Assembly: GCA_964652765.1 (NCBI GenBank)
Contig: CAZZBA010000005.1
Location: 1-37,997 of the forward strand
DNA: 37,997 nucleotides
Direction of reading: 5' to 3'
From: an uncultured Victivallales bacterium
GTDB lineage: Bacteria; Verrucomicrobiota; Kiritimatiellia; UBA8416
Position 1 is the first letter of the stretch. Each line of letters starts with the position of its first letter. The translations under genes were made by a program, and so were the position numbers. The notes below the pieces were generated by a model. It ran no database searches, was not told where the DNA came from, and saw nothing but the letters and a program-made list of their open reading frames with translations. Below are positions 1 to 29,363 of this stretch, piece after piece.

Positions 1-125
1 GCAAACAGTGTTTGCTTTGTGTGGCGTTTTGTGGCAAATTCGGGAGTTCAGTGGTATAAGGTGCTTTGAGGAAACGGTTCCGGTTTCCGCCAACATAGGT
101 TTACTAGATGTTTGGAGGCATGATG

Positions 126-3100
126 ATGGCTGCATTTAACGGCGTATTCCGCAAGGGGAACGGTCGCTGGTTTAGCCGGTTGATCCTGGCTGGCGCGGCA
201 CTCCTGGTCACGGGTGGCATTGGGCTGGCGGCACCGGTGCCTGGTGGCAGCGGCTGGCGCACGGCGTCCGGGGCGATGGTCTCGGATGCCGGGGACGGGG
301 CGGTCATGGTGCAGGCATTGGCCGCACCGGCAAACACCCAGCGGCTGGTTTTCCGGTTTCCCGCGGTGGCCCTGAAGCGCGGTCCGGACGGGTTGCTGGA
401 TATATCCCTGCCTTCCGCTGGACAATGGCGGCAGCCGGGCGAGCCTGTGTTGCCGATGCTCTCGACGCGGGTGGCTCTGCCACAGGGGCATGCGCTGGTT
501 TCGTTCAATGTGGTGCCATCCGATCCGCAGGAACTCGTGCTGGATGGCCCGGTGCGCCATGCGCAGCGGCCTTATCCGCTGAGCCGTCCGCAGGACCGGG
601 TGGAAACCCCTGCTTCCGCCGCTATTTACGGTGCGGACTCGCCCTATCCAGCCGTCCTCCACACGGATGGATCTGTGCAGACGAAGCGCGGTGTCGGCTT
701 TGTGGACCTGGCGCTTTTCCCGGTATCGTACCGCCCGGCCAGCGGGCGGCTGACCGCGTATGGAACGTTGACGCTTGAAGTGGTGACGCGGCCGGTCAAG
801 GATCCCGGCATTTCCCTGAATGCGGCGGATGATGGCTGGCGTGCGCGCCTGCGGTCGGCGGATGACCTGGCGGTGCTCGAGTCGCTGATCGAGAACCCGC
901 AGACACTGGCGGAGTATCAGCCCGAGGTGGCTTCTGATGACGTGGGCACGATCTCGCTGGCGGGGGCCGAGGATCCCGGCCAGCCGCCGCTTCCCTGCCG
1001 CCTCGGTAGCGTTTTCAAGCACCTCATTATCACCACCCGCAACATTCGCGACGGGATTGTGGATGCGGGTACGGCGATTGCCCAGATCTTCAGCGAGCAC
1101 GCCTACCTTTTCATCTATCCGGATCCGCAGACGGATTGGGAAATTGATATGCAGGCCGTGGCCGATGCGGGCGGGTATCCCGTGGACATCGGGGATGAAT
1201 TGGAGCAGGAGTTCGTTGACAAGAGTCTGGACGCGCTGGGCGTTGCGTCGAACGACTGGTACTACGCCTTTGAATTCAATGATCCGGCGTTGGATGGTGA
1301 CGCCAGCGGGACGCCCGACTGGATGGAGTTGCTGGTTGGGACGCAAACCAACGGCGTGCCCTTCCGCTTCACGTATGTGGCGTTCACGAACCGGCCGCTG
1401 GATGGCATCGTGGCCTTGCGTCAGGCGCAGGGGTTGTCCTCGACCGTGATCTCGATCGAGTCGATCCTGGAAACCTATCAAAGCCTGGGCATGGAAGAGG
1501 AGCAGGCATTGCGCACGTTCATCCGGGATGCCTACGACAAGTGGATCACGGAATACGTGGTGCTCGTTGGCGATGGCACGGTGATGCCGATGCGTACGCT
1601 GCGTGCTGAGGCCTCGCCCTACATCGATGATCTGCCCAGCGACCTTTATTTCCAGTGTCTGGACGGATCCTTCGATTCCGATGGCAACGGCATCTATGGC
1701 GAGCCGACCGACGGTGCCGACCGGCTGGATGGGCGCCCCGGCGAGGATATCGACCTGTATGCCGAGCTGGCGATCGGGCGGGTTGCCATATCGGATGCCA
1801 ACGCCATGTCGAACTGGGTGGCCAAGGTTGTCCGCTACGAGACCGATCGTCTCGCCGGTACCGCGCCTTACCTGCGGGGCGCCCTGCTGCTGGGCGAGTA
1901 CCTCGGTTTCGGCGGCATCTCCGAGTACGCCTCGCCGATGATGGAGGAAATCCGCCTGGGCTCGTCCGAACACGGTTACCGTACCGAGGGGTTCGCGGCG
2001 CTGGATATCCACACCAATATCGTCACCCTCTACGATGATGAACAGCCCTGGACCAAATACACGGCGGCCGCTTATATCAACAGCAACCAATTCTCGTTGC
2101 TGAACCATCTGGGTCACAGTGATTACAATTACAACATGAAATTCTACACTGAGGATGTGCAGTTCCTGCTGCGCAACGAACGCCCCGCGTTCCTCTATAC
2201 CCAGGGCTGCTGGCCGGGGGCGTTCGATAGGGACTGCATTGCCGGCGAGTTCCTTGGCGGCAGCAGCACGAACGCGCTATTTGGCGGTGTCTTCAATTCG
2301 CGTTACGGCTGGGGCGATTATGACACCACGGATGGCCCCAGTCAGCGCTACAACCGCTGGTTCTGGCATGGCTTCTTCGGAGAGCTGATCCCTGAGACCG
2401 GTGTCTTGAATCAAATGGCCCACGAGCGCAATGCCTCGCGTATCGGCGAGGAATATATGCGCTGGTGCTACTACGAGAGCAACCTGCACGGCGATCCGGC
2501 GCAGTGGCTTTACGGGATCGAACCCTCTGTCACCCTCGATCGCGAGGCCTACCGCTCCGATGCCGATGCCGTTGTCGAGGTGGTCCTGCCGCTGGCCGGC
2601 CCGACCATGCAGGAGGTGGTTGTGACGGTGACGACCTATACCGCGTTCATCGACCCGATCCTCACGACCAATGTGACGTGCTATCGCGTGGGACCGACCG
2701 ATAGGACGGCGCGGTTTGCATCGCTGGCGTTCTCGCTGGCCGATCTGGGCGCGGTCAACGGCGGCACGGTACGCGCCGAGGCGACGCTGTCTCTCGACGG
2801 GATCCCGCAGCTGTGCGACGACCGGGCGGATATCAAGGACGATCCGCCCCGGATCATGGGCCACACCCTGATGGCCGACGAGACCTATATCGATTTCTCC
2901 TTTACCACGGACAACCCGGTGACAAGCGAGGCGCGCATCGGCGACAGTATCCCGCTGACGGCGGACTGGCAGACCGTCTCCGATACCCGCGCCACCTTCC
3001 ATTCGATCCGCTTCGAGGGGCTGGAGCCTTTTACCCAGTACTTCATCGGGGTGCGCATCGAGGATGCCGCCGGTAATGTCGTCAGCATCCCCACCAACCT

Positions 3101-6100
3101 GTTCAGCGAGATCGAGGCGGAGTATTTCACGGTTGCCACGATCGGGCGCGAGACCACGCTGCGGACCGATTGGGAACACAGTGCCGACGGCTGGACCGTG
3201 ACCAACATCAATGGCGGCGTCTGCTGGGAATACGGCCAGCCTCTGACCTACGGCCCGCAGGATGATGCGCGGTGCTGGGGAACCATCCTGAACGGACGTT
3301 ACCCCGATGGTGCCAATGCGCTGCTGACCTCGCCGCCGTTCGGCGTGCGAGAGCGTCCCATGCTGGTTTTCCGTCATTGGCTGGATGTGCAATACTCTAT
3401 GGATATGCAAGGGGTCTCGCCGTCGCCTCCGCCGTTTGGTGATTATGGCAAGGTCGAGGTGCTTTCAAACGGTGTCTGGCATGATGTGACCCGCTACATT
3501 GAGGGGCGCGATGCGGCAAGCTATGTCCGCGTGGTCAACACCGATAACACGAATACGGTGATCACCGGCCAGAGCGATGGCTGGCAGGACGTGCGGGTGA
3601 ACCTGCCAGCGTCATTCGCCAATCAGCCGCTGTCCGTCCGCTTCGTGTTTGTCTCGGACCAGCAGTCGTTCGGGGCGGGCAATCCGGCTGGCTGGTATAT
3701 CGACGAGGTGACGGTCCAGGATGTCCCCGGCAACGGGCTGGGCATCTCGCAGGTCGACGTGAGCGATGTCAATGGCTTCAACGGGCTGACGCTGGTCGGT
3801 GACGCCGACGACCATGCCGAGGCGGGCGAAACGGTAGCGATCCGGCCTTACCTGTTCAATTACGGGACCACGACCTTCGGCAACCTGTCCGGGACCCTGA
3901 CCGTGCAGATCGGCGGCTACCCCGTTACGAATGCGCTGCTGCTTGACGGGGCTCCTGCCGCCGTCAGCTATACCGGACCGATTGCCCCGGCGGATCTTGT
4001 GCCGGCTAACGAGTGGATCCGCCTGCGACTCTCGCCCGGCCTGGCACCGGGAACGGTCGTGACGCTGCTGCAGTCCGTGACCAACGCGGCCGGCCTGCGG
4101 CTGGATTCGCGCTACGACCTGGTGATCAATACCGTGGTGCCGATCAGTGGTCTGGTGATCGATGCCACCACCAGCAATGCGATTGCCGCCGCCACCGTGA
4201 CGGCCGTGCGCGAGAGCTGGCAGCAGGGCAAGGTCACCGGTGCGGATGGGCGATTCGTGTTCAATGGTCTCACCGCCGGTGATGCCTACACCCTGACCGC
4301 CGGCAAGCCCGGCATGTATGCCTCGCAGACGCAGTCGGTAACGGCCCCGGCCAGCAATGTGCTTTTTGTGCTCGGCATGCCGATTGCCAGTTACGCGCCG
4401 ACCTCGCTGGCGTTCACGGTCGTCGCCGGTGGCAGCGTGGGCGACAGCGTGGTGTTCAGTAATGCCGTCGGCGCCACAGCCCCGCTGGATGTAGCGCTGG
4501 AGGAGATCGACTACCATCCGGCCGCCTCGGGATGGCTTGTCGTGACACCGCAAAGCGCACAGCTCGCCCCTGGCGCTGCCTCTACCTTTTCCGTGACAGT
4601 GGATGCCTCTTCGCTGCGTGCCGGGACCTATCTGGCCGAGCTGGTCTTCAGTACCGACGACCCGATGCTTGCCATGGTGCGGGTGCCGGTCGAGGTAACC
4701 GTCTGGCGCGAGCCGATCCTGGCTTTCGGCGGGTTATTGTTCGAGGATGACTATGCCGGGGACGGCGACGGCCAGCTGGAGGCCGGGGAAACCGCCCGCA
4801 TATGGGTTTATCTCAATAACAGCAGCGGGTTGAGCGATGTGGTGGATGTAACCGGTACGCTTAGCACCACCAACACGCATGTGACGATCAACCCGCCGCC
4901 GACGCTGCACTGGCAGTACATCGCCCCCTACAGCTCTCGCCTTTCGACCAACGGCGTCGAGGTGGTGCTCGATCTGGCCACCCCCGCAGGCGAGGTGATA
5001 GACTTTAATATCGAATTGGTCTATTTCGACGGGCTGGTCTGGCAGACCAATCAGGCACCGTTCTCCTACACCTATCTGCCCTACCACTCGGTCAGCGGCA
5101 TCGTCGAAGGGGTGGTCTGGAACGAGAAGAACAAGGCTCCCGATGGAACCGTCCCGGTCGCCGGGGCGCGGGTGACGGTAGAGGATATCCATGGCAACCT
5201 GTTCTCCAGCATGCCGACCGACACCAATGGCGTCTATGTCCTGCCGCCTCTGCCGCACGGGGATCTGTGGTTCAAGGTCTACGAGCCAGACGGCTCGCCC
5301 TACGTCCCGCCCGCCGGAACCAATATTCTCGTGAATGCCGATACGACACAGGACTTCCTGCTCAATAACTACGGCACCAATGGCCCGATCCTGCGTTTCG
5401 AAGAGGTACGGGTCTACGATTACGGCGGCGATTTCGACGGCGCGTTCGAGCCAGGCGAGACTCTCTATATCTATGCCAGTATCTACAACGAGGGTCGCAA
5501 GAATGCCACCAATGTCACCGACTTGATTGAGCTGGCCGACATGGGAGCCTACGGCCCGTTCATGCAGGTCACCCAGGCGTCCACGTTCACGACCAATACC
5601 ATCTACATGGTTCCGGAGTGGGCACGGCGATACGGCTATGAGTATTTGTATTCGGTCGATCTTTATTATTTCGAGGCGACGGTCAATGCCGATGCCGTCG
5701 AGGGGGGCAAGCAGCGCTTCTGGTTGACGACCACCGATGGCGGACGCGTCTGGCCGTTTGATTTCTCGATCACGGTGTCATCGAGCTACAGCATCGGTGG
5801 ACGGGTGACCTATGAGTTTGGCGCGTCCGCGCCTGACATCACAGTCCGGGCGGAATTGCCTGATGGAACCGTTATGACCGATATCACGGACTGGTCTGGT
5901 TACTATGATTTCGAAGGCTTGGCTCCCGGCACGACAGGGATTGTTGTGCGGGCCATCCCGCCCGGTGATTACGCCGTCGAGCCGTTGTCCTACGAGCTCG
6001 GTCCGCTGACCAATGACGTGACGGGCGTGGATTTCGTGCTCAAGGCCAGTCAACTGTTCCTGAGCCCTTCACCGTTGACGGCGACGGTCAACGAGGGGGA

Positions 6101-11840: not shown

Positions 11841-11852
11841 GGGAAATGTGAC

Positions 11853-12689: not shown

Positions 12690-12758
12690 AACCGAAATTA
12701 AAGCACTCGCGAATAGGCCAATATAGGGATTTATATGAGGAAGCTGTTGAAAAACGCG

Positions 12759-12786
12759 CGGCTCACCGAGGACGGTTCGCCCTGCC
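12759..12786 (-). repeat. REP-like element (GGCAGGGCGAACCGTCCTCGGTGAGCCG on the minus strand)
   Basis: Same CGGCTC..GAGGACG..TCGCCCT pattern as the elements at 37135-37187 and 37220-37243; related to 35707-35730. Confidence 0.6.
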
Positions 12787-12863
12787 TGGCTGGAACAGAT
12801 AGGGAGCCGCATGCGGTTGATTAGCCAAAAAGATTAAGAAAATGGACAAGCTTCTAAAGAAGA

Positions 12864-12893: not shown

Positions 12894-12935
12894 TCGAAGT
12901 TCAGGGATATGGGCCCGATACGGGGAGAGAATAAT

Positions 12936-21900: not shown

Positions 21901-24900
21901 ACGGTACGCTCAACGAGCAGCGTATGACCGCGCCCGCCGCCTTGACGCGTACCGGCCACTGGTACCACCTCGCCGGTGTATACGACCGTGACGCGGGCGA
22001 GTTGCGTCTCCATGTCGATGGTGTACCGATGACCGTAGCCGCCGTGCCGGCGGAAGCGGGTGGCTGGGGCAGCGATGGCATCGCCACGACGCGTGTCGGC
22101 GAAGGTTTTGTCGGGCAGATCGACGAGGTCCGGATCTGGGATCTGGCCGCCACGGGGGCTCAACTGGGCGGCAATGCCTACCGGACGCACGAGCATAGTG
22201 ATGTGTCGCCCGTCGCCTATTACCGCTTCGACGATTTCGGCACCACGGTGGAAGACTTTGCCGCTCCCGCCAAGGACTGGCTGACCGTCTGGGCGAATGC
22301 CGGTGATCTGGTCAACGGGGCCATCATGCAACCGTCGTCCGACAGTCCGATTGCCGCCACCGTCTATACCGATGAGGATCTGGATGGCGTCCCTGACTTC
22401 TGGGAGATTGCGGTTTCGGGGTCGCTCATTGCAGACGGCGGGTCCGATGCTGACGTCGACGGGGTCTCGCTATTGAACGAGTACTACGCCCGTCTCCACC
22501 CGGCCTATGCTTCAACATTCAACGATGGCGTTGTGGATGGCGAACGCGACTTCGACGGTGACGGCCTATCCAACAGCCAGGAGAATGAATATGGAACCCG
22601 TCCTGACAAGGTCGATACTGACGATGATGGAGTGGGTGACTTCGAGGAAGTGGCGGGTACACGCGCTGACGGTACCCTGGTCGGCATCTCCAATCCGTTG
22701 CACGGGCTCGATCCGGCGATGTCGCGTGGTCTCACACTGGATGGCGCCAGCCGCATGGTGGTCCCCCCCCAGGGACGGCATGCCCTTTCCGAATGGACGC
22801 TCGCTGCCTGGATTCGTCCGGACTCAGGGAGTGATGGCGGTGCAGTGTTGGCGCGGACTTTCAGCGACCGCAGCGTCAACTACGAACTGGGTCTGACAAA
22901 CGATGTCGGGGTGCTGCGGCCCTATGTGCGCTATGACAGTCGCACGGCGGGCGTGATAACCGAGAGTCGGTTGGCCCAGGATGCGGCCGGCACGGTCATC
23001 GTGAATAATCCGCATGGTGAATTCCTTTGGGTGGCGCCGGAGACCTGGACCCATCTGGCCGCAACCTATTCGCCCAGTAACATGTTGCTCTCGCTGTACA
23101 TCGACGGCTCATTGGTGGCGACGCGGACCGATACGCTCCGCAAGCCGTTTACCGGTGCTGGCGACGGGATTGCGCTGGCTGGTGAATTATCCATCGGCGG
23201 CGGTGCGCTCGATGACACCGGCGCAACCGTGCTGAAGGGTTTTGAGGGGGCGATTGATGACGTGCGACTCTCTGGAATTGCAATGCCGGCATCTGCCATT
23301 CAGCAGATGATGGGTGGGCAAATTGTGGTCGAGGTGCCGTCGGACGGTATCACGAACGGAACGGTCCGCACCGCTCAGCAGATGGCGGCCATGCAGCCCG
23401 AGGTCGTGCCCGGGGAGTTCCTCGTCGGCGTAAGATCCCGCACTGATCTGGCACCCGTTACAGCGCAGATCAAGGCGGCTGGCATGGTGGTGGCCCGGAC
23501 GTATAAGTCGGTGGCGGTCATGCATGTGAAGGTTGCCGGCGGCGATGATATGACAGCCCGAGTTGAGCAGATCAAGAATATGGGCAAGGTGTCCTACGTC
23601 GAGCCTAACTATAAGGTTAGGCCGTACGCGGTCCCGAACGACCCTGATTTCGGACGGCTCTGGGGGCTACACAATACCGGCGATAACGGCGGATTAGACG
23701 ATGCCGATATCGACGCGGTTGAAGCGTGGGATATCAAGACGGGCGGTAACGTCATTGTGGCCGTGATCGACAGCGGCCTGGATACCGGTCATCCCGATCT
23801 GGCAGCCAATCTTTGGGTCAATACGGGTGAGACTGCCGGTAATGGTATCGATGATGACGGCAATGGTTACATCGATGACGTTAACGGGTATGATTTCGGT
23901 GAAGGCGATAACGACCCGAGTAATGACATTATTGGCCATGGCACACACTGCGCAGGCACCATTGGTGCCGTCGGCAACAACGGTGAGGGAATTGTTGGCG
24001 TCAACTGGAATGTCAAGTTGATGGCCTGCAAATTTGCCGATGCTGGTGGTGGTTTGGATCTGGCGGCTGGTATTGAGGCAATCGAGTACGCCGTTGCGCA
24101 CGGGGCGCGCGTCAGCAACAACAGTTGGGGCGGCTATGGTTTCTCCCAGGCGCTGTACGATGCCATCCGCGTAGCCGGGGAGAGTGACCACCTCTTCGTG
24201 GCGGCGGCGTCCAACGACGCGAACGACAACGACCAGAATCCGGCCTATCCGGCGTCCTACGACCTTCCCAATATCATCGCGGTGGCGGCGACCGATCGCA
24301 ACGACCAGATTGCCGACTTCAGTAATTATGGCCTGACAACGGTTGATCTTGGCGCTCCGGGTGTTGAAATCCTGAGTACTCTGCCTTTGGCTGGCTCCCA
24401 GATGGGGTCGACCTATGGCGAGGCACAAGGGACCTCCATGGCCACCCCGCATGTGACGGGAGCCGCCGCCTTGTTGCTGGCGATTGATCCCTCGTTAAGT
24501 GCCCTCGCCCTCAAGGCGGCGCTCTTGGATAACGCCGATCCGATCGCGGCGCTCGACGGTCGTTGCGTGACCGGTGCCCGCCTGAATGTCTTCAATGCCA
24601 TGCCGAAGGGCGGCGGTGGTGGTGGTGATCTGGTGGTCCGTGGCCTCTCAGGATGGTTCCGGTTTGATGATGGCGGGGTGACGGCCGAGGACTCCACACT
24701 CACGGCGAACTGGGCGAACGATTGGCGTTATGCCGGGCGTCTACAGGGTGCGTCCACGATGACCAACGCTGCCGCCGTGCTGCTGACCGGTGACAGTGAC
24801 GGCGACGGCCTTTACGACTGGTGGGAAGAGACTTGGGGTATTGATCCGTTCGATGCAAGCGAAGCACAGGGAGGCTCCGCCGATCCGGATGGCGATGGCC

Positions 24901-27900
24901 TGAGCAACCAATATGAGTATTTGGCTTCGCTGGCGCTCATGGCACGTGGCGAGCGCGGTCTCAACCCGCTACAGGCGGATTCCGACAATAATGGCGTTAG
25001 CGACGCGCTCGAGGATAGCGATGGCGATGGCATTGCCAATATTCACGAACAGGACATCTACCGCACGCACCCAGGATGGGCGGATTCGGATGACGATGAG
25101 CATTCCGACTCGGATGAGCTGACGGCCAACACCGCACCGACGGATTCAGCCAGCCCTTACGGAAGCACGGCGTTGACATTCGCTGGCGGTTCGGCAGCCG
25201 TGAATACGGTGGTGGTAAAGGACAAAGTGGGTACCGCCTTTACCGAACGTTACAGCGCGAAGGAGTGGACGGTAGAAGTGTGGATCAACGCTACCGGTTC
25301 GATTCCCTCTGGCGTCTGCCCGCTTGTCAGCCGCCGCACCCACGCCACGGGACGGCGCAACTACGAGGTGGGGCTGACGAACGGCATTCCGTATGCGGCC
25401 TTTGACGGTGTGGAGTTCGGCGACGCGGTGGTCTTCCCGCTGGGGCATGTTCCGATTGCCAGCAACACGTGGACGCATATCGCGGCCCGTTTCAAACTTG
25501 CTGAAATACCGGGAAGGAATGAGTTGTCATTGTTTGTCAACGGTGAGCTGCATGGAATGGTCCAAACCGGCTGGCAGTCTGCGACCGGCCCTGGCGACCT
25601 GGTCTTCGGGTCGGCGGCGTTTGTCGGGCAGTTGTCCAATATCCGGATTTGGCAGATTCCTCGGCCAGACGAGCAGATTACCGGCACCAAGGACTCCGAT
25701 TTGCTGGGAGGCAGTGTGGCCGAATTGGCAGGATATCTCGATCTGCCGGGTACGGGACATCTTAAGGAAACCGCCACTACCCTGCAGGGTAATGGTGATG
25801 GTATCGACATGTTGCGCGAGGACTGGACTCTCGAATGCTGGGTGCGGACCACCGCTACCGGTGGCCGTTTGATTACCCGGCGCAATATTGGCGAGCGGAC
25901 CGAAGACGACTTCAACTATTACCTCGGGTTGACCCAGGATGGCACGTTGATCGGTCGGTTCAATATGGAATACGGCGTTTGGGTTGATGGCGGCCTCGTA
26001 TTCATCTGGGTTTCAGGAGTGGACCCGGTTATCAACAATATTGTCGGTGAGATTCCCGTCAATGATGGACAGTGGCATCACGTGGCCTATGTGCGCGACG
26101 CGAACTTCTGCTACCTTTATGTTGACGGTCTGCTCGATACGAAACAAGACCGGATTATTCCGCCGGATATTCCGAATATAATTCCTTTCCCGGACAATTA
26201 CTGGCGTGTGCGTGCTGCCGGTGGACCCGCCATCTTCGGTGAAGATCTGAACGGTTCGCTGGATGAGATCCGGATATGGAATCGGGCATTGCCGACGGAT
26301 GAACTTCAATTTGTCGGTGATCGCAATCTGAGCGGAAACGAGCTCGGACTGGTGAGCTACTTCAACTTTGATTTCCAGATCGGCGAGCAGGCTAATGAGC
26401 GCTCGATATTGCGTGATCCGGAAAGCGAGTACGGTATCTATATTCCCGATGCTGTTCGCGTCAGTGGTTCATCCGACGGGCCGACGATTATCTATGATCC
26501 GACGCTTGCCGTGAAAGGTGTGGCGTTGAATGGCATGTTCCTGGGCAATGACGGTGGTATGTGGGTAGAGGACCGTACGTACCGCATCGGCGTCGCCCCC
26601 TTTACCGGCTGGCAGTATGCCGGTGTACGCGGAGCGAATGTCAGCTACGCGCAGCAGCAGCCGATGCTCTGGGACCTGAACAAGGATTCCGACGGTGATG
26701 GGATGCCTGATTGGTGGGAGTCTCTCTACGGGTTTGATCCGTATAGCGTTAGTACCACGGGAAATACCCAGTTTGGCCCCTACGGCGATCCCGATAAGGA
26801 CGGCCTCAGTAATGTCGCCGAATATCGCGCGGGTACGAATCCGCTTATCAGGGACACAATGGGTCGCGGTTTCGGCGACTACGATAGCCGCCCGTCGGCC
26901 TTCGAGCCGACATTCGGGCAGGTATTCGACGATGGTGACCGGATCGCGGACAGTTGGGAGTTCCTGTTTATGAACAAGACCCCGGGAACGCTGAATCGCA
27001 GTCTGGATCCGGCATACTACGACGCCCACCTCGATCCGGATGAGGACCGCTGGAGCAACTATGCCGAGTTCATAGCCAATACGGACCCGACGGCTGTCCA
27101 TAGTTATCCAACGCCCCCGGTACAGTTTAACGCGCGATATAATGGCCGTTATGGGGATGCTTTGGAAGATCTTCTTCCCCAGCGTGAATATACCGAGAAT
27201 ATTGAAGCGGCGACTGCTGTTTTCACCTATACCCTGCAATCCGAGCAAATTATTCCAAAATCGTTCACGCTACGGTTTAATATCGGACCTACGCGTTATG
27301 TTGTTTATGACACCATCGACGGAAATCTGGTTGGCGGTGGTATCATAGATGGAACGATTAATCATGAAATCGGGACACTGGCAGTCAACTTCAACGGGGA
27401 TGCGACGGATCTGGAAATGACCTATTTAGCCCCTTCGGAGCAAAATATTCGCATATCAATCTATGATAAACCGTCCATGGATGGCTTCCCGGTTGCAACT
27501 CATTTGACCGGTACGGCGTTTACGGAAGTGAGGCAGTTCGAAACCGGACGCGTGGTGGAAGGAATGAATTACGTGTTCGCCTTTGTCGATATCAATGGCG
27601 ACGAGGAGTGGGACCCGGCGGAGGAACCGGCTGGTATCGCGGAGTTCAATATGGGCTGGGGCGACTGGAACGAGGTCGAAATCCCGCTGACCGATGACCG
27701 CCAGATGCGTGGCTTCCCGCGCCTGGTCTGGGATCCGGTACCTGCTGAAGAGCAGGCGGTGACGCTCGGGTACATGGTCATTGCCAAGCAGGGACGCGAT
27801 ACGCTCTTTACGCGCTATGTCGAGAATCCGCTGCGAACGTACCTCCATGAGGGTGATTATCTCTATGCTGGTATGGATGGTGTTGGCGGTGATGGCTCGC

Positions 27901-29363
27901 TTGAGGCGTTGACGTATGAAGTCTACAAGAATAATACGGTATATGGGTATGACTTCGGGACGCCGACCGCGATCCTGATCGCGATCGTGACCAACACGGT
28001 CACGGAAACACCGGTGGTTGTAACCGGCCATGACATCACCTATGCCTATGCCCGCAATGAGCTGGCCTGGACGATGGATCCGAATGCGACCTGGTACCAG
28101 ATGACGTTCCGGGCCAATACCACGAATGCAACGGTCAATCTTTCCGGTTCCCCGTTGCTACAGACCGGCCGCCGCACGGTGCCGTTCCGCGATGTGAACG
28201 ACCAGTACCGGGCGGACCTGCCGTTCTATGCAGGCGATGTCCGCGCTGATGGTTCCGTCTGGACGAATGGCCGCTACTGGGTCCAGATCACCACCGGCAT
28301 GCAGCTGGGCGGTACGCGGTCGTCGGCCTGGATGCCGTTCAACCTGGGTGTGCTCGAGCCGGATCAAAACGACGGCAAGAGCATGATCGAGGGCAAGCTC
28401 TACTACTTCGGCGGGCATGACTTCTTCAGTGATGACCTGCGTCGCGCCGGGGCGGTCTCGAACCGGATGCCGGTTGTCGTGCAGACATTCAGCAACCCGG
28501 GCTTCAGCGGGGTGCCGGATGCGCAGGTGACGATCAGCCCGGCGGCTTGGACAAACACGCAGTACCGCTACGAGGCCGTGTTCCAGCTCAAGGGGCTGCA
28601 CCGCGGCTCGCATTACCTGCGGGCGTTCGTCGATTCCAACGACAACGGGTTGCTGGACGATTGGGAGACCTGGGGATTCAACCGCGATACCCAGACCTAC
28701 TACGAGCCGCTGCGGGTCAGTCTCGAAAACGCCGATGCTATGCAGGTGCAAAATCAGATGGTGATCATCCGCGACCGTGATACCGACGATGACGGGTTGC
28801 CGGATATCTGGGAGTATGACAGCTACGGTACCGCCGATGACAGCTTCCTGACCCTGTATGGCGGTGAGTCGGCGGGTGCCAACAGCCTGTCGCTCGCGAG
28901 CCGCTGGCAGTACGGGTTTGACGCCTTCTCGGCGCTGGCGATTGTGGATCAGAATTCCAACGGCATCCCGGATGAGTGGGAACTGTACTACTTCGGCGGG
29001 TTGCTGGGCACCGGTGTGCATCTGAGTGATGCCGATGGCGATGGGATGACCATCTATGGCGAGTACATCAACGGGTCGGATCCGACGAATCCGGGTGACG
29101 GTCTCAGGCTATCGCCGTCGTCCCCTGTGAGCGGGACGCCAGTGCTGACCTGGAGCGCGGCCAACAGCACACTCAATTATCGGGTGCAATACACTGACTC
29201 GCTGATGGCGACCTGGACGCAGGACAACAACATCGCGAGATACAGCCGTGTGCCGATCGGAGGCGGGGCGTACAAGTGGACGTACACGGATCCGGTGCCG
29301 CCAGCCAGCGGCTCACGCTTCTACCGCGTGGTGGTTGTGCCGGGAACCAATCCGTATCCATAA
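12936..29363 (+). CDS. Giant (~5,475 aa) secreted protein: signal peptide, Ig-like/PKD domains, many TSP3-like DxDxDG Ca-binding repeats, seven LamG-like jelly-roll domains, bacterial Ig + YfaP/DUF2135-like domain, subtilisin S8, C-terminal beta domain
   Basis: Uninterrupted ORF 12909..29363. GGAG lies 8 nt before ATG 12936. Signal peptide ends in VQVQA. PKD motif YDFGDGS..THVY. LamG motif WT(V/I/L)x.W....DE.RIW occurs 7 times (degenerate in some copies). YfaP-like motif WD..GDLD.W..DP...LDIDD..G.GPENI. Complete S8 triad. Confidence 0.93.
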   Translation: MNTMKQTGVINKMVGSAWLLAAMLGLAVQVQAADPIPQSITVTSTPANGTHYAYGESMLVRVRFDRAIAVANGVVGTSPYVSLTISPTDATSNRATYLFEAGTDLFLEYVVQAGDFASPLATSGTLPLRVTGTTAIQDAAFPADTWNTSDNVPTAGTNALSAAGAVIRTVSITPATAVLLEGQTQLYTINRGGPRAIALNVSLTSSLPSVGAVPATVTIPAAGDQIQFSVTALSVGVSTITADAYPLLGAAANETSTLTVNAGPAPTFTILPPVTLYEGVNFDPTTYPYQGSGTIRLSRAPIAPITVTLTSSNPARLGFLGNVNTVTFLAGQTEKTFQLEGLGGNAAVQITGTATAPYVSDGVAASVSILNVPPVINSPADPWTIANNSEGRTVTFSWSGSDVAADIPNLQAYYDFGDGSNTGWLNGDAGTTTHVYNLAGTFGVTIRYRDQDGGEVTRTSVITIDPATEILLTEVVRGDPADPQIPPGYKGLPGLGQGGINDTLVETLKVAVPGPQTNVFTIKYSPTQPSVVLVASPFTSDIVTAGATNIYDSFFHVWIGEGFVSPGAIVPIANPTARLELNGQDRDIQGVFSREFAPRDNYGDIDNDALPDQWEELWWPEQLMFETPNRAANDDADFLPRGANANMAYPAGGGNYTPDGAGFGNVYEVRGLDIDLNAANSDTNPAGVILDEPQYTNDTREFFGTDPTVDDTDGDGFSDGWEYYFWVNAEFRGITGVSYNPGSPMQDGTIIPSTFIEAAFHPLVAGSQGADPDGDGLSNIEEYALGTDPINWDSDGDTMADGWEVFRNLNPHGDDAGGNPDGDYMAALGYDASVPRPAGPLLFSVHYYVYDLLQYDPRTGWSGTYTLRSRAGAALAPDTTAMLNIDEYALMQFWINENVVGAVTPGMWGRYSTNPQSNDTDGDGATDGWELYVHFDPSLNQAGLLWDVDMDGSFLQNEFAGVESSPNSGASLTIGSQTTAGTSTNATGVVTTNSTTTVVVVDSTPLTNINEPWWNKFWPSDPNNADTDGDFVGDATERAAFPVGPFLYTAPAEWNQDYIRGARAGGGLNPCSVDTDMDFIPDFWEVQYRYDRVQFMNPDGSTYPVGGMDGSIFDSRSGLTDLTGAEENYDYDSDGLNNYQEYYVNAMWHFNYDKWVSGLGNGAYPPAGLMQGAPLHWDWAIAANYWEQPIYEGMSPPFHTPFVFILPEPRPFVPAYASADPSMWDTDYDGMDDHYEMYYALNPLWSEQLDAIAKGAPATVMDIRVQPWAGGASLSDPDQDGIPNWEEAIFPSRPMPENLNSSPSPHWVTDTSYEQSWVNLYYQPLGHAWYWMEGLEGDPVYPYPAVVSLAAFPPTYVYSFANDEGYDTDNDNIPDRMETTGADNVGLTDLTDFDSPRLRKALYLDGDSAARTKFGVSHELNQLRSWTVELWVRSEEPVSPTGERQIIIERPLRGQPTDPMPAPELVRRTFRVGLEADGRPFAEYNNMGNELLSENVTGTGWTLQTNVWYHIAAVLDGDNSQFSLYVNGLLAARKGTALIPATGVIDGNPPLVLSAPIVIGAADRNPNGRVQNPVPGSVTPPDLHSHFKGWVDEIRVWHGGRTQEEVNASRMQRFTLDDVKHSMTNYAAAQAILEDLNPPDMGYQIYSNLPPVVLYHYAFDNLPDPKHDPIVPQHFELLNGRPSDGSYVGVPWWWQAPDRSRVYNDYRFIQWAENTASHVPALPLVNRFGNVVDYQYGVVQSSPFWTSPPWMTNTAPNATFVFPNKTYPSQNDYYSGLSALSEGGRSTTGLLPLWYAKADMDVPLWDNETPGTASYDSNGDGIADWWALSHGFDPFSTNSIADGDADSDGISNYWEYRIGSDPNAMYSLDPTGDRTDAEYDADGDGLSNLDETTVFMTDPSNPDTDDDGYNDGNEVKGWEPASADEYGIGPQVSSPVESLSPEVRRSFVAAGRNIEVPKSDRFAFLGIEELILPGPTVDITAPADGANIAVRFTDVTATITPFGPAIDSVLLYINDRFVASYGSVATFTDTVIIYSGENIITVYAIDTEGGVGSDTITVNGTFPRADIRVTQQWDVPGDLDTWLIDPQGRTMGFSPGSQLVVGPPNQPGEPIPGAQLDIDDIPGTGPENITLEEPNSIAGQYEVWMNNFSHGGNPLSTVRVLVLEGRGGEQYVEFGPQAMPISGMQNPDAWWHVTTITMPEGTMNPPGRPVLPPDNIEAPDVGITADNGWTIEAWVKPGTTNQTGAIASYNTRMGRKPFVVGLDANRPFVQVLSHGGTAYEAMGNAIATGVWTHVAFVYSSNDKTVRVHINGLLAAARTMLESRDENLGLLYMDTTVDRGSGALAFTDTLIDELRVWKVARDGGLIAAAMHEIQSPKDTLVAMYRFDDGGADIEDSRYPMDTAYDLGQGTIPDADRNAKPGVDGDRMTSDDVPFLAAGGLDGENDYVTSMDYAAVMGILDSDDDGIADWYEDMFGIPASSNVVGGLVAGADLDGDGLLNLFEFHARTNPNDDDTDADGVIDSEEDFDGDGVSNFDEQGLGTSPWLKDTDDDGVTDANEVAYGMSPTNSLSPVKELALQVSGSSESYVSVPPRIGLALSSWTVSANVYPESSTSGATLVAREVQSGQYTYRLGLDTNRVPYVSYTAGDGSNVMLRATGLRALPLYAWTTVAGSFSEITGDLRLSIDGVEVAHVNTAGRPKTFGLGPVRTTIGRGVDGYLDEVMIQDGAGMHQLHYNFNDGTHAAGTSGEVDWRHGQVEDRAALEGLESNWWLEWRDAGTLVNATFAIHPDEVVAIVDTDGDGMPDAWELANGLNPFNVDTDGDGISDAEEDADLDGLNNYYEYRAGTDPNNPQTVAGTYDRDADSDSDGLTNGDEQRYGADPGLADTDDDGMTDATEADQTAGRFTLPFASLSSTNGAGVLSLSANTQYVAMPDQLRLRLPGSWTVEAWVRMDAAFGGTATIIRRASGSQVNYELGLTAGVPYIRFVGVYNGTLNEQRMTAPAALTRTGHWYHLAGVYDRDAGELRLHVDGVPMTVAAVPAEAGGWGSDGIATTRVGEGFVGQIDEVRIWDLAATGAQLGGNAYRTHEHSDVSPVAYYRFDDFGTTVEDFAAPAKDWLTVWANAGDLVNGAIMQPSSDSPIAATVYTDEDLDGVPDFWEIAVSGSLIADGGSDADVDGVSLLNEYYARLHPAYASTFNDGVVDGERDFDGDGLSNSQENEYGTRPDKVDTDDDGVGDFEEVAGTRADGTLVGISNPLHGLDPAMSRGLTLDGASRMVVPPQGRHALSEWTLAAWIRPDSGSDGGAVLARTFSDRSVNYELGLTNDVGVLRPYVRYDSRTAGVITESRLAQDAAGTVIVNNPHGEFLWVAPETWTHLAATYSPSNMLLSLYIDGSLVATRTDTLRKPFTGAGDGIALAGELSIGGGALDDTGATVLKGFEGAIDDVRLSGIAMPASAIQQMMGGQIVVEVPSDGITNGTVRTAQQMAAMQPEVVPGEFLVGVRSRTDLAPVTAQIKAAGMVVARTYKSVAVMHVKVAGGDDMTARVEQIKNMGKVSYVEPNYKVRPYAVPNDPDFGRLWGLHNTGDNGGLDDADIDAVEAWDIKTGGNVIVAVIDSGLDTGHPDLAANLWVNTGETAGNGIDDDGNGYIDDVNGYDFGEGDNDPSNDIIGHGTHCAGTIGAVGNNGEGIVGVNWNVKLMACKFADAGGGLDLAAGIEAIEYAVAHGARVSNNSWGGYGFSQALYDAIRVAGESDHLFVAAASNDANDNDQNPAYPASYDLPNIIAVAATDRNDQIADFSNYGLTTVDLGAPGVEILSTLPLAGSQMGSTYGEAQGTSMATPHVTGAAALLLAIDPSLSALALKAALLDNADPIAALDGRCVTGARLNVFNAMPKGGGGGGDLVVRGLSGWFRFDDGGVTAEDSTLTANWANDWRYAGRLQGASTMTNAAAVLLTGDSDGDGLYDWWEETWGIDPFDASEAQGGSADPDGDGLSNQYEYLASLALMARGERGLNPLQADSDNNGVSDALEDSDGDGIANIHEQDIYRTHPGWADSDDDEHSDSDELTANTAPTDSASPYGSTALTFAGGSAAVNTVVVKDKVGTAFTERYSAKEWTVEVWINATGSIPSGVCPLVSRRTHATGRRNYEVGLTNGIPYAAFDGVEFGDAVVFPLGHVPIASNTWTHIAARFKLAEIPGRNELSLFVNGELHGMVQTGWQSATGPGDLVFGSAAFVGQLSNIRIWQIPRPDEQITGTKDSDLLGGSVAELAGYLDLPGTGHLKETATTLQGNGDGIDMLREDWTLECWVRTTATGGRLITRRNIGERTEDDFNYYLGLTQDGTLIGRFNMEYGVWVDGGLVFIWVSGVDPVINNIVGEIPVNDGQWHHVAYVRDANFCYLYVDGLLDTKQDRIIPPDIPNIIPFPDNYWRVRAAGGPAIFGEDLNGSLDEIRIWNRALPTDELQFVGDRNLSGNELGLVSYFNFDFQIGEQANERSILRDPESEYGIYIPDAVRVSGSSDGPTIIYDPTLAVKGVALNGMFLGNDGGMWVEDRTYRIGVAPFTGWQYAGVRGANVSYAQQQPMLWDLNKDSDGDGMPDWWESLYGFDPYSVSTTGNTQFGPYGDPDKDGLSNVAEYRAGTNPLIRDTMGRGFGDYDSRPSAFEPTFGQVFDDGDRIADSWEFLFMNKTPGTLNRSLDPAYYDAHLDPDEDRWSNYAEFIANTDPTAVHSYPTPPVQFNARYNGRYGDALEDLLPQREYTENIEAATAVFTYTLQSEQIIPKSFTLRFNIGPTRYVVYDTIDGNLVGGGIIDGTINHEIGTLAVNFNGDATDLEMTYLAPSEQNIRISIYDKPSMDGFPVATHLTGTAFTEVRQFETGRVVEGMNYVFAFVDINGDEEWDPAEEPAGIAEFNMGWGDWNEVEIPLTDDRQMRGFPRLVWDPVPAEEQAVTLGYMVIAKQGRDTLFTRYVENPLRTYLHEGDYLYAGMDGVGGDGSLEALTYEVYKNNTVYGYDFGTPTAILIAIVTNTVTETPVVVTGHDITYAYARNELAWTMDPNATWYQMTFRANTTNATVNLSGSPLLQTGRRTVPFRDVNDQYRADLPFYAGDVRADGSVWTNGRYWVQITTGMQLGGTRSSAWMPFNLGVLEPDQNDGKSMIEGKLYYFGGHDFFSDDLRRAGAVSNRMPVVVQTFSNPGFSGVPDAQVTISPAAWTNTQYRYEAVFQLKGLHRGSHYLRAFVDSNDNGLLDDWETWGFNRDTQTYYEPLRVSLENADAMQVQNQMVIIRDRDTDDDGLPDIWEYDSYGTADDSFLTLYGGESAGANSLSLASRWQYGFDAFSALAIVDQNSNGIPDEWELYYFGGLLGTGVHLSDADGDGMTIYGEYINGSDPTNPGDGLRLSPSSPVSGTPVLTWSAANSTLNYRVQYTDSLMATWTQDNNIARYSRVPIGGGAYKWTYTDPVPPASGSRFYRVVVVPGTNPYP
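23400..24600 (+). other. Subtilisin-like S8 domain with I9-like propeptide within the second giant CDS
   Basis: Triad: Asp codon 23769 (VAVIDSG), His 23937 (GHGTHCAGTIG), Ser 24435 (GTSMATPHV). Followed by a GGGGGG linker. Confidence 0.95.

What the first reader, a model, noticed from the sequence alone, without database searches (positions are those of the whole stretch)
126..29363. 29-kb locus of two giant exported proteases (three catalytic sites, two catalytic classes) flanking a small membrane-anchored gene
Seen: two intact co-oriented ORFs of ~3,900 and ~5,475 aa. Both have Sec-type N-termini, acidic Ca-binding repeats, a related S8 domain and a related C-terminus, with a 278-aa anchored protein between them. 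I saw no RTX repeats, autotransporter barrel or secretion genes in the window. Inference: a cell-surface proteolytic/adhesive assembly ('proteolysome') that binds via LamG, PKD and NHL domains and cleaves via C25 and S8, for particulate protein or glycoprotein degradation, predation or surface-layer maturation. I do not recognise a described system with this composition.
Basis: partly seen in the sequence, partly recalled or inferred. Interest (0 to 1): 0.85.

Follow-up and report, generated by a model that had tools for sequence, protein, structure and literature searches.

The report
Conserved giant secreted protease-lectin gene pair
Two very large exported multi-domain proteins that carry intact protease domains, with a small membrane-anchored gene between them, form a gene cassette shared by a group of freshwater and gut PVC bacteria; it is a real, undescribed variant of a familiar kind of giant surface protein.

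Summary
The window has two intact co-oriented ORFs of 3,910 and 5,484 aa with a 278-aa N-terminally anchored ORF between them. Gene 1 carries a gingipain-like C25 domain (His670/Cys701) and an S8 subtilase (Asp2187/His2435/Ser2635). Gene 3 carries a second S8 (Asp3621/His3677/Ser3843), 46% identical to the first.

The giants are not chimeras. Fourteen proteins of 3,714-4,089 aa share gene 1's architecture, and 160 proteins of 3,000-9,600 aa share gene 3's core.

The order giant / small anchored ORF / giant recurs on one contig in 11 of the 15 other same-order genomes that hold both giants. The other 4 are split over contigs.

The 'proteolysome' reading is only partly supported, because the protease modules are exchangeable payloads:
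- Gene 1 type: C25+S8, S8+S8, S8 alone, or none detected.
- Gene 3 type: S8, an M10-like module, or none detected.

The conserved parts are an NHL propeller, a TSP3/LamG scaffold and an FN3-like C-terminal domain of about 85 aa. That domain sits at the very C-terminus of 18 of 19 hits in this genome. It occurs in 64 of 64 genomes of the order and 74 of 81 sampled from the class, and matches no Pfam or NCBIfam model.

Best reading: Ca-stiffened extracellular binding scaffolds with protease payloads. Location, secretion route and physical assembly are untested.

The parts
108..11840 (+). Gene 1, 3,910 aa (start may be ATG 120-126). A giant exported protein. Order of parts: signal, C25 propeptide-like region, C25, Ig/CarboxypepD_reg spacers, S8 with acidic insert, conserved C-terminal half, NHL propeller, TSP3 motifs, C-terminal domain.
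   Evidence: 14 orthologues of 3,714-4,089 aa share the architecture.
171..245 (+). N-terminal hydrophobic segment of gene 1 (aa 22-46). It is signal-like and is the only hydrophobic segment in the protein.
   Evidence: Kyte-Doolittle scan; sequence
1401..2501 (+). Peptidase C25 (gingipain-like) domain, aa 432-798. Catalytic His670 is at nt 2115-2117 and Cys701 at nt 2208-2210.
   Evidence: His and Cys are kept in 12 of 14 orthologues.
6642..8105 (+). Peptidase S8 domain of gene 1, aa 2179-2666, with Asp2187, His2435, Asn2502 and Ser2635. An acidic insert of about 190 aa lies between Asp and His.
   Evidence: The triad is invariant in 14 of 14 orthologues.
8340..10691 (+). Conserved C-terminal core of the gene 1 family (aa 2745-3528), with no Pfam family beyond one CarboxypepD_reg. 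It was used as the family marker.
10521..11402 (+). NHL-repeat beta-propeller region, about aa 3472-3765.
11586..11837 (+). C-terminal FN3-like domain of gene 1 (aa 3827-3910), preceded by two TSP3-type motifs at aa 3766 and 3792.
11853..12689 (+). Gene 2, 278 aa. It has an N-terminal hydrophobic anchor (aa 7-27), helical conserved blocks, a low-complexity middle and a Pro-rich conserved tail. It starts 12 nt after gene 1's stop, behind GGGGAA.
   Evidence: 7 orthologues at 49-69% identity. No Pfam, NCBIfam or PDB match.
12758..12783 (+). 26-nt interspersed repeat in the gene 2-gene 3 spacer. It has 46 copies on 33 contigs of this genome.
   Evidence: (depth spike)
12909..29363 (+). Gene 3, 5,484 aa (likely start ATG 12936, giving 5,475 aa). 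A giant exported TSP3/LamG scaffold with an internal S8 protease.
14091..14324 (+). PKD domain, aa 395-472.
16146..17348 (+). Family-defining core of gene 3 (aa 1080-1480). It is rich in Asp and aromatic residues, with many invariant Asp, and runs into the first LamG.
   Evidence: The AlphaFold model was not usable (pLDDT 33).
17196..26282 (+). Seven LamG (Laminin_G_3) domains at aa 1430-1607, 2233-2366, 2603-2733, 2946-3078, 3291-3455, 4115-4249 and 4301-4458. Clusters of TSP3-type Ca motifs lie between them.
23385..23609 (+). Fervidolysin-type N-terminal prodomain placed directly before the S8 domain (aa 3493-3567).
23745..24536 (+). Peptidase S8 domain of gene 3, with Asp3621, His3677, Asn3737 and Ser3843.
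   Evidence: The motifs are kept in 13 of 13 S8-bearing relatives checked.
27456..29108 (+). Conserved tail region of the gene 3 family (aa 4850-5400), with no Pfam family.
29070..29360 (+). C-terminal FN3-like domain of gene 3.
31993..35676 (+). Neighbouring 1,227-aa protein with CHB_HEX_C_1 x5 and GLUG that ends in the same C-terminal domain (35416..35664). It shares the sorting-type domain but is not part of the conserved cassette.

Best explanation
The locus is one copy of a conserved three-gene cassette found in PVC-group bacteria whose record titles read Kiritimatiellia or Lentisphaeria. It encodes two giant Sec-exported proteins and a small N-terminally anchored partner.

The two giants are modular extracellular scaffolds.
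- Gene 1 has Ig-like and CarboxypepD_reg spacers, a conserved C-terminal half and an NHL beta-propeller.
- Gene 3 has clusters of thrombospondin type-3 Ca-binding motifs alternating with seven LamG lectin-like domains.
- Both end in the same FN3-like C-terminal domain.

Protease modules are inserted into these scaffolds as exchangeable payloads. In this window they are a gingipain-like C25, an S8, and an S8 close to deseasin MCP-01. All three have intact catalytic residues. Both S8 domains and the C25 domain are preceded by prodomain-like stretches, so activation by autoprocessing is likely.

Inferred mechanism:
1. The proteins are exported through Sec.
2. They cross the outer membrane by a route not identified here.
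3. External Ca2+ stiffens the TSP3 stretches.
4. The C-terminal domain retains or sorts the proteins at the cell surface.
5. The LamG, PKD and NHL modules hold polymeric glycoprotein or particulate substrate.
6. The proteases cut it.
7. Gene 2 acts as a membrane-anchored accessory of gene 1.

Shown here: the genes, domains, catalytic residues, orthologues, synteny, payload exchange and the strict C-terminal position of the shared domain. Inferred: location, Ca dependence, substrates, processing and any contact between the three products.
For: - Intact ORFs and domains.
- Catalytic residues: C25 His670/Cys701 aligned to gingipain R. S8 triads present, and invariant in 14 of 14 gene 1 orthologues and 13 of 13 S8-bearing gene 3 relatives checked. 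Gene 3's S8 matches deseasin MCP-01 at E 5e-101.
- Export: genes 1 and 2 have only N-terminal hydrophobic segments, and gene 3 has none over the threshold outside the S8 helix. Gene 3's signal-like N-terminus was read by eye.
- Not an artefact: 14 proteins of 3,714-4,089 aa carry C25+S8+NHL. 160 proteins of 3,016-9,597 aa share gene 3's core. Contigs of another run match window pieces of up to 4,772 nt with 0-7 differences.
- Synteny: the gene 3 core is in 17 of 64 and the gene 1 core in 19 of 64 same-order genomes, counting the window's own. Both are in 15 others. In 11 of those they lie on one contig and strand with gene 1 upstream.
- Small ORF: one with an N-terminal signal or anchor lies between the giants in 10 of 10 fetched cassettes.
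- Wider sample: among 80 loci from species-representative genomes, an NHL-type upstream giant is present in 14 of the 68 that include upstream DNA.
- Shared C-terminal domain: 18 of 19 hits in this genome end 0-5 aa from the stop. All 17 hits in the other fetched cassettes are C-terminal. It sits on varied secreted-type cargo: GH5+CBM9, S8, BspA-LRR, cadherin, an InhA-type MAM domain and CHB_HEX_C.
- Expression hint: contigs from two RNA libraries of one study match gene 2 (11979-12289) and at least 14 pieces of gene 3 with 0-1 differences.
- Gene 1-gene 2 contact: weak support. Complex prediction scored 0.52 with a best control of 0.00. That mark was reached by 58 of 80 solved complexes and 2 of 110 mismatched pairs. 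A score of 0.60 or under was seen in only 7 of those 80, and in both mismatches that passed. The runs agree in at least 45% of contacts and the partner's pLDDT is at least 52.
Against: - No experiment or proteome places the proteins outside the cell.
- No secretion or sorting machinery is encoded in the window. The contig starts about 100 nt before gene 1, so the upstream context is unknown.
- The protease payloads are optional. One of the 10 other cassettes (G051) shows none with my probes, and 2 of 14 orthologues lost the C25 dyad.
- The cassette is patchy. With gene 1's first 1,200 aa as query, none of the 5 same-genus genomes matched. Only 1 of those 5 has the two cores.
- The window's gene 2 shows no detectable homology to the small proteins of the other cassettes.
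- The RNA-library contigs could come from carried-over DNA, and no silent control stretch could be laid.
- The FN3-like fold of the C-terminal domain is generic (best Z 8.0) and does not itself show a sorting role.
- In the class-wide search some open frames hold two hits, so the domain is not terminal everywhere.
Confidence: 0.55

Rival explanations
1. Polyprotein precursors. The giants are not working units. Their internal proteases, each behind a prodomain, cut them into several independent secreted enzymes and binding proteins.
For: A fervidolysin-type prodomain lies directly before gene 3's S8, in the middle of the chain. A weak Propeptide_C25 match lies before the C25 domain (18.6 bits). 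A stretch similar to gene 3's prodomain lies before gene 1's S8. The S8 triad is invariant in 14 of 14 orthologues. Passages read in the giant-gene preprint raise the same idea for S8 and C39 domains of Omnitrophota giants.
Against: No cleavage sites are known. The scaffold order is conserved over 35-87% identity, which argues for a function of the whole chain. This rival overlaps the best explanation rather than excluding it.
Confidence: 0.2
2. Contact weapons. The giants are surface-displayed attack or predation proteins that bind and digest the envelope proteins of other cells.
For: Giant PVC proteins with peptidase and binding domains have been read this way in Omnitrophota and other PVC lineages (passages read). 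The locus combines adhesin-type domains with three proteases.
Against: No toxin, immunity, pore-forming or cell-wall hydrolase module turned up in either giant. Relatives occur in rumen and gut MAGs by record title. From my own recall, cultured Kiritimatiellia are polymer degraders. There is no evidence of any kind for a prey.
Confidence: 0.1
3. Structural coat or matrix. The conserved scaffolds form an adhesive, Ca-cross-linked surface layer or biofilm matrix. The proteases only mature or remodel it.
For: The conserved parts are the non-catalytic ones: NHL, the TSP3/LamG core and tail, and the C-terminal domain. Protease payloads can be missing or dead. Gene 3 has 29 Ca-type motifs.
Against: The cassette is absent from most genomes of the order (found in 17-19 of 64). 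That is unlike an essential envelope layer. The S8 triads are strictly kept where the domain is present.
Confidence: 0.1
4. Artefact. The giant ORFs are assembly chimeras across repeats, or chance open frames in GC-rich DNA.
For: The genome is a fragmented MAG (635 contigs, 82.8% complete). Gene 3 holds repeated LamG/TSP3 units. Many short 'joints' were reported when contigs were laid. No single laid contig spans the locus.
Against: Orthologues of matching length and domain order exist in many independent assemblies. Curated Pfam hits run along the whole length. The joints have sides of only 20-45 letters at 90% likeness, as expected from TSP3 motifs of other organisms. A 4,772-nt contig covers window 19361-24132, from the LamG units into the S8 domain, with 7 differences.
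Confidence: 0.02

Closest known systems
Gingipains RgpB/Kgp of Porphyromonas gingivalis (MEROPS C25; PDB 1cvr, 4rbm)
   Same: A C25 catalytic domain with aligned His and Cys. A propeptide-like region before it (weak). Ig-like domains follow it. A large multi-domain exported precursor ends in a small beta-sandwich domain. That gingipains are processed surface complexes is my recall.
   Different: No T9SS models or machinery were found. The C25 domain is fused to an S8 subtilase and an NHL propeller in a 3,910-aa chain. The C25 module is dispensable within the family.
Deseasin MCP-01, a subtilase (PDB 3vv3)
   Same: Gene 3's S8 domain aligns over the whole catalytic domain at E 5e-101 with the catalytic motifs kept. 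A PKD domain is present in the same protein. That MCP-01 is collagenolytic, carries a PKD domain and degrades particulate protein is my recall.
   Different: Here the S8 domain is embedded at aa 3613-3876 of a 5,484-aa TSP3/LamG scaffold, and other members of the family lack it or carry an M10-like module instead.
Thrombospondin signature domain (type-3 Ca repeats plus an L-type lectin domain; eukaryotic; recalled) and bacterial TSP3_bac repeats (PF18884)
   Same: Gene 3 repeats the unit 'cluster of DxDxDGxxDxxE motifs, then a ConA-like beta-sandwich' seven times.
   Different: The context is bacterial, with many tandem units and protease payloads. No homology to thrombospondin beyond the repeat motif was tested.
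Giant PVC-group proteins (West-Roberts et al. 2023 preprint, 10.1101/2023.11.21.568195, passages read; PMC12057145, passages read)
   Same: Very long exported multi-domain proteins in PVC lineages. Some have S8-type peptidase domains and TSP3 repeats, and are read as surface machines for polymer or cell-wall attack.
   Different: Those papers deal with Omnitrophota, Elusimicrobiota and other clades. The preprint's main text has 0 occurrences of 'Kiritimatiell' or 'LamG'. The gene pair, the payload exchange and the C-terminal domain described here do not appear in the passages I read.
C-terminal sorting or assembly modules: T9SS CTD with the PorU sortase, and cellulosomal dockerins
   Same: A small domain fixed at the extreme C-terminus of many unrelated secreted enzymes and adhesins in one genome. 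It has a beta-sandwich fold and is preceded by a Ca-type motif. C25 paralogues elsewhere in the genome score best against the PorU model (187 and 160 bits).
   Different: No T9SS CTD model matches. The PorU model's cut-off of 420 bits is not reached. SprA_N, PorV and GldM were not found. No receptor or cohesin-like partner is known.

Membership tests
Peptidase family C25 (gingipain-like) | Match to PF01364 above the curated cut-off | tested here: met
   125.3 bits against a cut-off of 23, aa 432-798, profile positions 14-371 of 374
Peptidase family C25 (gingipain-like) | Catalytic His and Cys in register with a solved gingipain | tested here: met
   Profile A3 against 1cvr at E 8.8e-16. The GHS and GCxxGAFD positions align with the gingipain His and Cys. 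These are His670 and Cys701. They are kept in 12 of 14 orthologues.
Peptidase family C25 (gingipain-like) | N-terminal propeptide (PF08126) | tested here: inconclusive
   18.6 bits, below the cut-off of 22, at aa 98-226. PF08126 is among the precomputed domains of the orthologue P0136.
Peptidase family S8 (subtilases) | Match to PF00082 above the cut-off in both giants | tested here: met
   162.4 and 192.3 bits against a cut-off of 21.8
Peptidase family S8 (subtilases) | Asp-His-Ser triad and oxyanion Asn | tested here: met
   Gene 1: D2187, H2435, N2502, S2635. Gene 3: D3621, H3677, N3737, S3843. Gene 3's motifs are aligned with 3vv3. Conservation: 14 of 14 and 13 of 13.
Type IX secretion cargo | C-terminal domain matching T9SS CTD sequence models | tested here: not met
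   No NCBIfam family at E <= 1 for three 100-aa C-terminal pieces, apart from an unrelated 0.19 hit. No shared Pfam family among the 22 C-terminal domains at E <= 1.
Type IX secretion cargo | T9SS machinery (PorU, SprA, PorV, GldM) in the genome | tested here: inconclusive
   PorU model: best 187 bits, below the 420 cut-off. SprA_N, PorV and GldM models: no match. However, the genome is 82.8% complete and no control genome exceeded the cut-offs.
RTX / type I secreted giant proteins | Tandem GGxGxDxUx nonapeptide repeats | tested here: not met
   0 matches in gene 1. 3 isolated, scattered matches in gene 3. No HemolysinCabind family in the Pfam scans.
Autotransporters (type V) | C-terminal beta-barrel translocator domain | tested here: not met
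   No such Pfam or NCBIfam family was found. The C-terminus models as a beta-sandwich of about 85 aa.
LamG / TSP3 giant protein family of Kiritimatiellae-labelled MAGs (defined here; unnamed in the literature I searched) | Conserved core (aa 1080-1480) plus Laminin_G_3 and TSP3_bac above their cut-offs | tested here: met
   160 proteins at E <= 0.001 share the core. Laminin_G_3 scores 176 and 263 bits and TSP3_bac 38 and 54 bits.
Skp/OmpH periplasmic chaperones (considered for gene 2 and its positional counterparts) | Match to the OmpH family model | tested here: not met
   Only scattered coiled-coil families came up for the 12 small proteins at E <= 1, and OmpH is not among the 25 families shown of 82. 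P0002 has 0 Pfam families.

The most novel reading that the evidence does not exclude
The FN3-like domain of about 85 aa that ends both giants is the address tag of an undescribed, class-wide surface-sorting or docking pathway of Kiritimatiellia-type PVC bacteria. It would work like the T9SS CTD or a dockerin. In that reading the giant pair and its small anchored partner form a cell-bound, Ca-stiffened degradative machine whose protease payloads (C25, S8, M10-like) are swapped between lineages.

Support:
- The tag is terminal in 18 of 19 hits in this genome.
- It is carried by unrelated enzymes and adhesins.
- It is present in 64 of 64 genomes of the order and 74 of 81 sampled from the class, at up to 84 scored copies per genome.
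- It is unknown to Pfam and NCBIfam.
- PorU-like C25 paralogues elsewhere in the genome could be its processing enzymes.
- Gene 2 binding to gene 1's C-terminal region has weak model support only.
Probability: 0.22. Interest if true: 0.8.

Novelty: new variant of a known kind. Interest (0 to 1): 0.5.

Why it matters
Giant exported proteins are a recurrent but functionally unexplored feature of PVC bacteria. This locus gives a tractable case for four reasons:
- It is a cassette conserved across several families.
- All three of its catalytic sites can be assayed as isolated domains.
- Its payloads vary naturally (C25, S8, M10-like or none), which shows which parts are core and which are cargo.
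- A single C-terminal domain marks dozens of secreted proteins per genome across a whole class, yet is missing from the domain libraries.

If that domain proves to be a sorting or docking tag, it would define the secreted and surface proteome of these polymer-degrading bacteria of lakes, sediments and guts. It would also point to the missing machinery.

If not, the finding remains a solid annotation of two unusual multi-protease giants.

Tried and rejected
- **Fold of gene 3's core.** AlphaFold2 on alignment A5 (11 rows) gave mean pLDDT 32.9. It was unusable, so no fold search was made.
- **ESM Atlas.** Gene 3's tail gave only sub-0.9 leads to small TSP3-bearing Verrucomicrobiota clusters. Gene 1 aa 2950-3528 gave no usable hit.
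- **Fold of the C-terminal domain.** The model has pLDDT 80.9. Foldseek found no match at E <= 0.001; the best was 3.1e-3, a cytokine-receptor FN3 domain. VIA-align's best was Z 8.0, rmsd 3.2 over 83 residues, for 6nmy_D, within the range common for unrelated models. I read this as a generic FN3/Ig sandwich and nothing more. No T9SS CTD appears among the rows shown, which does not exclude one.
- **T9SS.** See the membership table. Not supported.
- **Gene 2.**
  - None of the 40 relatives matched P0002.
  - A profile of the 11 other small proteins does not find P0002 at E <= 10. Its best hit in the genome is an unrelated coiled-coil ORF on C51.
  - hhalign of A6 against A7 gave probability 10.6%.
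  - Pfam gave only coiled-coil noise, and the PDB sequence search gave nothing.
  - I therefore dropped the claim that gene 2 belongs to one family with the other cassettes' small proteins. Only its position and gross build are shared.
- **Promoter and terminator scans** gave counts no higher than shuffles.
- **C25 against the PDB.** The single sequence found nothing. The profile was needed.
- **Reads.**
  - No laid contig spans the whole 20-kb stretch.
  - Some bins have no RNA-library cover.
  - The listed joints have short sides.
  - None of these is used as evidence.
- **Runs.** Runs of three studies, labelled freshwater or lake water metagenomes, hold 0.2 or more of the sampled words. The best holders may be the window's own source.
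- **Literature.** Seven searches listed no paper on this cassette, on LamG/TSP3 giants of Kiritimatiellia or on the C-terminal domain. I saw search listings only, except for passages of PMC12057145 and of 10.1101/2023.11.21.568195. Supplements were closed and may list such proteins.
  - The phylum-wide search for the C-terminal domain gave no answer twice.

Full report
**What is in the window.**
The window is a whole contig (C5) of a fragmented metagenome-assembled genome: 635 contigs, 82.8% complete, 4.1% contamination. Three co-oriented ORFs fill positions 108-29363:
- 108..11840, 3,910 aa
- 11853..12689, 278 aa
- 12909..29363, 5,484 aa

The likely true starts are ATG 120-126 and ATG 12936, each behind a purine-rich stretch.

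Downstream lie:
- a DUF4160/DUF2442 pair
- a 347-aa ORF with no family
- a 1,227-aa CHB_HEX_C/GLUG protein
- an AAA_14/DUF4143 ATPase
- the first 362 nt of a 16S rRNA gene

There are no tRNA genes.

**Gene 1.**
Pfam gives Peptidase_C25 (aa 432-798, 125 bits), four CarboxypepD_reg domains, Peptidase_S8 (aa 2179-2666, 162 bits) and NHL repeats. Scanning segment by segment adds several weak matches: Propeptide_C25 (18.6 bits, below the cut-off), FN3-like, and BACON/choice-of-anchor-like. It finds nothing in aa 3137-3528.

A profile of six C25 domains aligns to gingipain R (1cvr) at E 8.8e-16. The gingipain His and Cys fall on His670 and Cys701. The S8 motifs give Asp2187, His2435, Asn2502 and Ser2635. 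There are 248 residues between Asp and His, against 56 in gene 3. That is an acidic insert of about 190 aa. The only hydrophobic segment is N-terminal, at aa 26-44.

**Gene 3.**
Pfam gives PKD (aa 395-472), TSP3_bac, Laminin_G_3, a fervidolysin-type prodomain and Peptidase_S8 (192 bits). My own iterated profile finds seven LamG copies, and a strict regex finds 29 DxDx[DN]Gxx[DN]xxE motifs clustered between them.

The S8 domain aligns over its whole length with deseasin MCP-01 (3vv3) at E 5e-101, with Asp3621, His3677 and Ser3843 in place. The two S8 domains of the locus are 46% identical.

There is no tandem RTX repeat, no autotransporter family, and no transmembrane-type segment outside the S8 helix. 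The N-terminal signal-like stretch was read by eye from the translation.

**Real genes, not chimeras.**
A word-indexed search with gene 1 aa 420-1000 returned 20 proteins. Fourteen of them (3,714-4,089 aa, 35-100% identical) carry C25, S8 and NHL in the precomputed domain lists. A search with gene 3 aa 1080-1480 returned 160 proteins of 3,016-9,597 aa. The named ones are 'Kiritimatiellae bacterium' MAG proteins annotated only as LamG-, PKD- or S8-containing, or as hypothetical.

When contigs of public runs were laid on 8000-27999, DNA-run pieces of up to 4,772 nt (19361-24132) matched with 0-7 differences. Contigs from two RNA libraries of one study matched gene 2 (11979-12289) and at least 14 pieces of gene 3 with 0-1 differences. 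This is a hint of expression only, because DNA carry-over was not controlled.

**Synteny.**
Within the window's order (64 genomes including its own), the gene 3 core is found in 17 and the gene 1 C-terminal core (aa 2745-3528) in 19. Fifteen other genomes have both. In 11 of these the two lie on one contig and strand with gene 1 upstream, at spacings like the window's. In the other 4 they lie on different contigs.

I fetched 10 of these cassettes. In 10 of 10 a small ORF of 136-268 aa lies between the giants. It has an N-terminal signal or anchor, with a lipobox-like Cys in two cases, followed by a coiled-coil region. One genome has two such ORFs.

In 80 loci from species-representative genomes that encode a gene 3-type core, an upstream NHL-type giant is present in 14 of the 68 that include upstream DNA. 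Those 14 are among the closest relatives. More distant ones, many from gut or rumen MAGs by title, have other neighbours.

**What is conserved and what is payload.**
Local BLAST with window-derived probes shows which parts are present in all 10 other cassettes. They are gene 1's pre-NHL region with the NHL propeller, and gene 3's core and tail. The shared C-terminal domain ends the upstream giant in all 10 and the gene 3-type giant in 7 of the 10 at the profile's threshold.

Proteases vary between cassettes:

| Giant | Protease content | Genomes |
|---|---|---|
| Gene 1 type | C25 + S8 | G031, and the window |
| Gene 1 type | S8 + S8 | G010 |
| Gene 1 type | S8 alone | G030, G035, G039, G017 |
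| Gene 1 type | none detected | G037, G051, G021, G007 |
| Gene 3 type | S8 | the window only |
| Gene 3 type | M10-like module with an HExxHxxGxxH motif | G031, G030, G037, G021, G007 |
| Gene 3 type | none detected | G010, G035, G051, G039, G017 |

Among the 120 listed relatives of gene 3, 23 carry PF00082 and 7 carry PF00413. Others carry vWA or DUF2141.

Among 14 aligned gene 1 orthologues the S8 triad is invariant. The C25 His and Cys are both lost in two, P0129 and P0134. Thirteen of 13 S8-bearing gene 3 relatives keep the triad motifs. The proteases are therefore functional where present, but they are interchangeable cargo on a conserved binding scaffold.

**The shared C-terminal domain.**
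A profile started from the last 85 aa of four giants, and iterated on all ORFs of this genome, found 16 ORFs. The 22-row profile A2 found 19, of which 18 end 0-5 aa from the stop. The exception is the weakest hit. All 17 hits in the other fetched cassettes are also terminal.

The carriers are diverse secreted-type proteins: GH5+CBM9, S8, BspA-type LRR, cadherin, an InhA-type MAM domain, TSP3 proteins and the neighbouring CHB_HEX_C protein. Most complete ones have N-terminal hydrophobic segments.

The domain models confidently (pLDDT 80.9) as an FN3/Ig-type sandwich. No Pfam or NCBIfam model covers it.

It occurs in 64 of 64 genomes of the order, at 1 to 84 scored matches, and in 74 of 81 genomes sampled across the class at E <= 1e-6. 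T9SS is not supported: PorU-like C25 paralogues score below the cut-off, and SprA_N, PorV and GldM were not found in an incomplete genome.

**Gene 2.**
P0002 has seven orthologues (49-69% identical, 255-294 aa). They share a conserved N-terminal anchor, two helical blocks and a Pro-rich tail, so it is a real gene. It starts 12 nt after gene 1's stop.

It shows no detectable homology to the small proteins of the other cassettes or to any family or solved structure.

A complex prediction of gene 1 aa 3460-3910 with gene 2 aa 28-278 gave weak support:
- The score was 0.52, with a best control of 0.00.
- The mark was reached by 58 of 80 solved complexes and 2 of 110 mismatched pairs.
- A score of 0.60 or under was seen in only 7 of those 80, and in both mismatches that passed.
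- The three runs scored 0.00, 0.61 and 0.52 and agree in at least 45% of contacts.
- The partner's pLDDT was at least 52.

**Reading.**
Most likely (0.55), these are extracellular or cell-bound, Ca-stiffened binding scaffolds that carry protease payloads, with a small anchored accessory. They would serve in the breakdown of polymeric protein or glycoprotein.

Export, intact catalysis, modularity and linkage are shown. Location, Ca dependence, substrates, autoprocessing and assembly are inferred.

The rivals are precursor polyproteins (0.2, overlapping with the main reading), contact weapons (0.1), a structural matrix (0.1) and an artefact (0.02).

**Comparison and novelty.**
The parts are known: C25, S8, TSP3, LamG and NHL. 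So is the kind of object, a giant exported PVC protein (passages read).

Three things appear to be undescribed:
- the conserved giant / small / giant cassette
- the lineage-to-lineage exchange of protease class on a fixed scaffold
- the class-wide, strictly C-terminal FN3-like domain

Six literature searches listed nothing on them. The proteins exist in public databases with automatic names only.

I rate this a new variant of a known kind, with interest 0.5. The boldest reading not excluded is that the C-terminal domain is the tag of an unknown sorting or docking pathway. I give it about 0.22.

**Limits.**
- The contig begins about 100 nt before gene 1, so upstream genes are unseen.
- The genome is incomplete.
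- My protease probes can miss other peptidase classes.
- Taxon names come from record titles of relatives, not from the window's own record.

Noticed in passing
window 12758-12783 (gene 2-gene 3 spacer): A 26-nt element has 46 copies (up to 2 mismatches) on 33 contigs of this genome, in both orientations and sometimes in tandem at 34-nt spacing (for example on C95). It explains a depth spike of 584-973 in the laid contigs. It looks like a REP-like interspersed repeat; its function is unknown.
   Followed up: partly
window 29484-29555 and 30636-30707; also 29367-29397 and 30712-30742: Direct repeats of 93% identity flank the DUF4160/DUF2442 gene pair (30072..30580). This suggests the small pair was inserted or duplicated as a unit. 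A 29-nt core of the first repeat has 9 copies in the genome.
   Followed up: partly
window 31993-35676: A 1,227-aa protein with five CHB_HEX_C_1/Fn3_assoc repeats and a GLUG motif ends in the same C-terminal FN3-like domain as the two giants (35416-35664).
   Followed up: partly
G000:C405:211-1725 (-) and G000:C53:5874-7100 (-): Two further C25-family ORFs (903 and 1,112 aa) score best against the PorU sortase model (187 and 160 bits, below the 420 cut-off). A separate ORF on contig C405 ends in the shared C-terminal domain.
   Followed up: partly
L014:4478-15628 (P0004, about aa 1850-2200): In the same-order orthologue of gene 1, the insert between the S8 Asp and His is much longer. It consists of about four repeats of an acidic motif of the type DG(I/V)DNDGDGLVDETGIDLxDxDVMxADYD.
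   Followed up: no
alignment A8, orthologues P0129 and P0134: Both C25 catalytic residues (His and Cys) are lost together in 2 of 14 gene 1 orthologues, while the S8 triad is kept in all 14. This is a natural pseudo-protease variant.
   Followed up: yes
G084:C101:35425-35676: A same-class genome of about 11 Mb has open frames of 11,724 and 5,921 aa that carry the same C-terminal domain, and more than 60 scored copies of it. Some open frames hold two copies, so the domain is not terminal everywhere.
   Followed up: no
window 35844-37055 and 37636-37997: An AAA_14/DUF4143 ATPase gene lies directly upstream of the start of a 16S rRNA gene that runs off the contig end.
   Followed up: no
L038:8173-8784 and L038:9048-9851: One related cassette has two tandem small coiled-coil genes between the giants. 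The second has an internal duplication of the conserved helical block.
   Followed up: no
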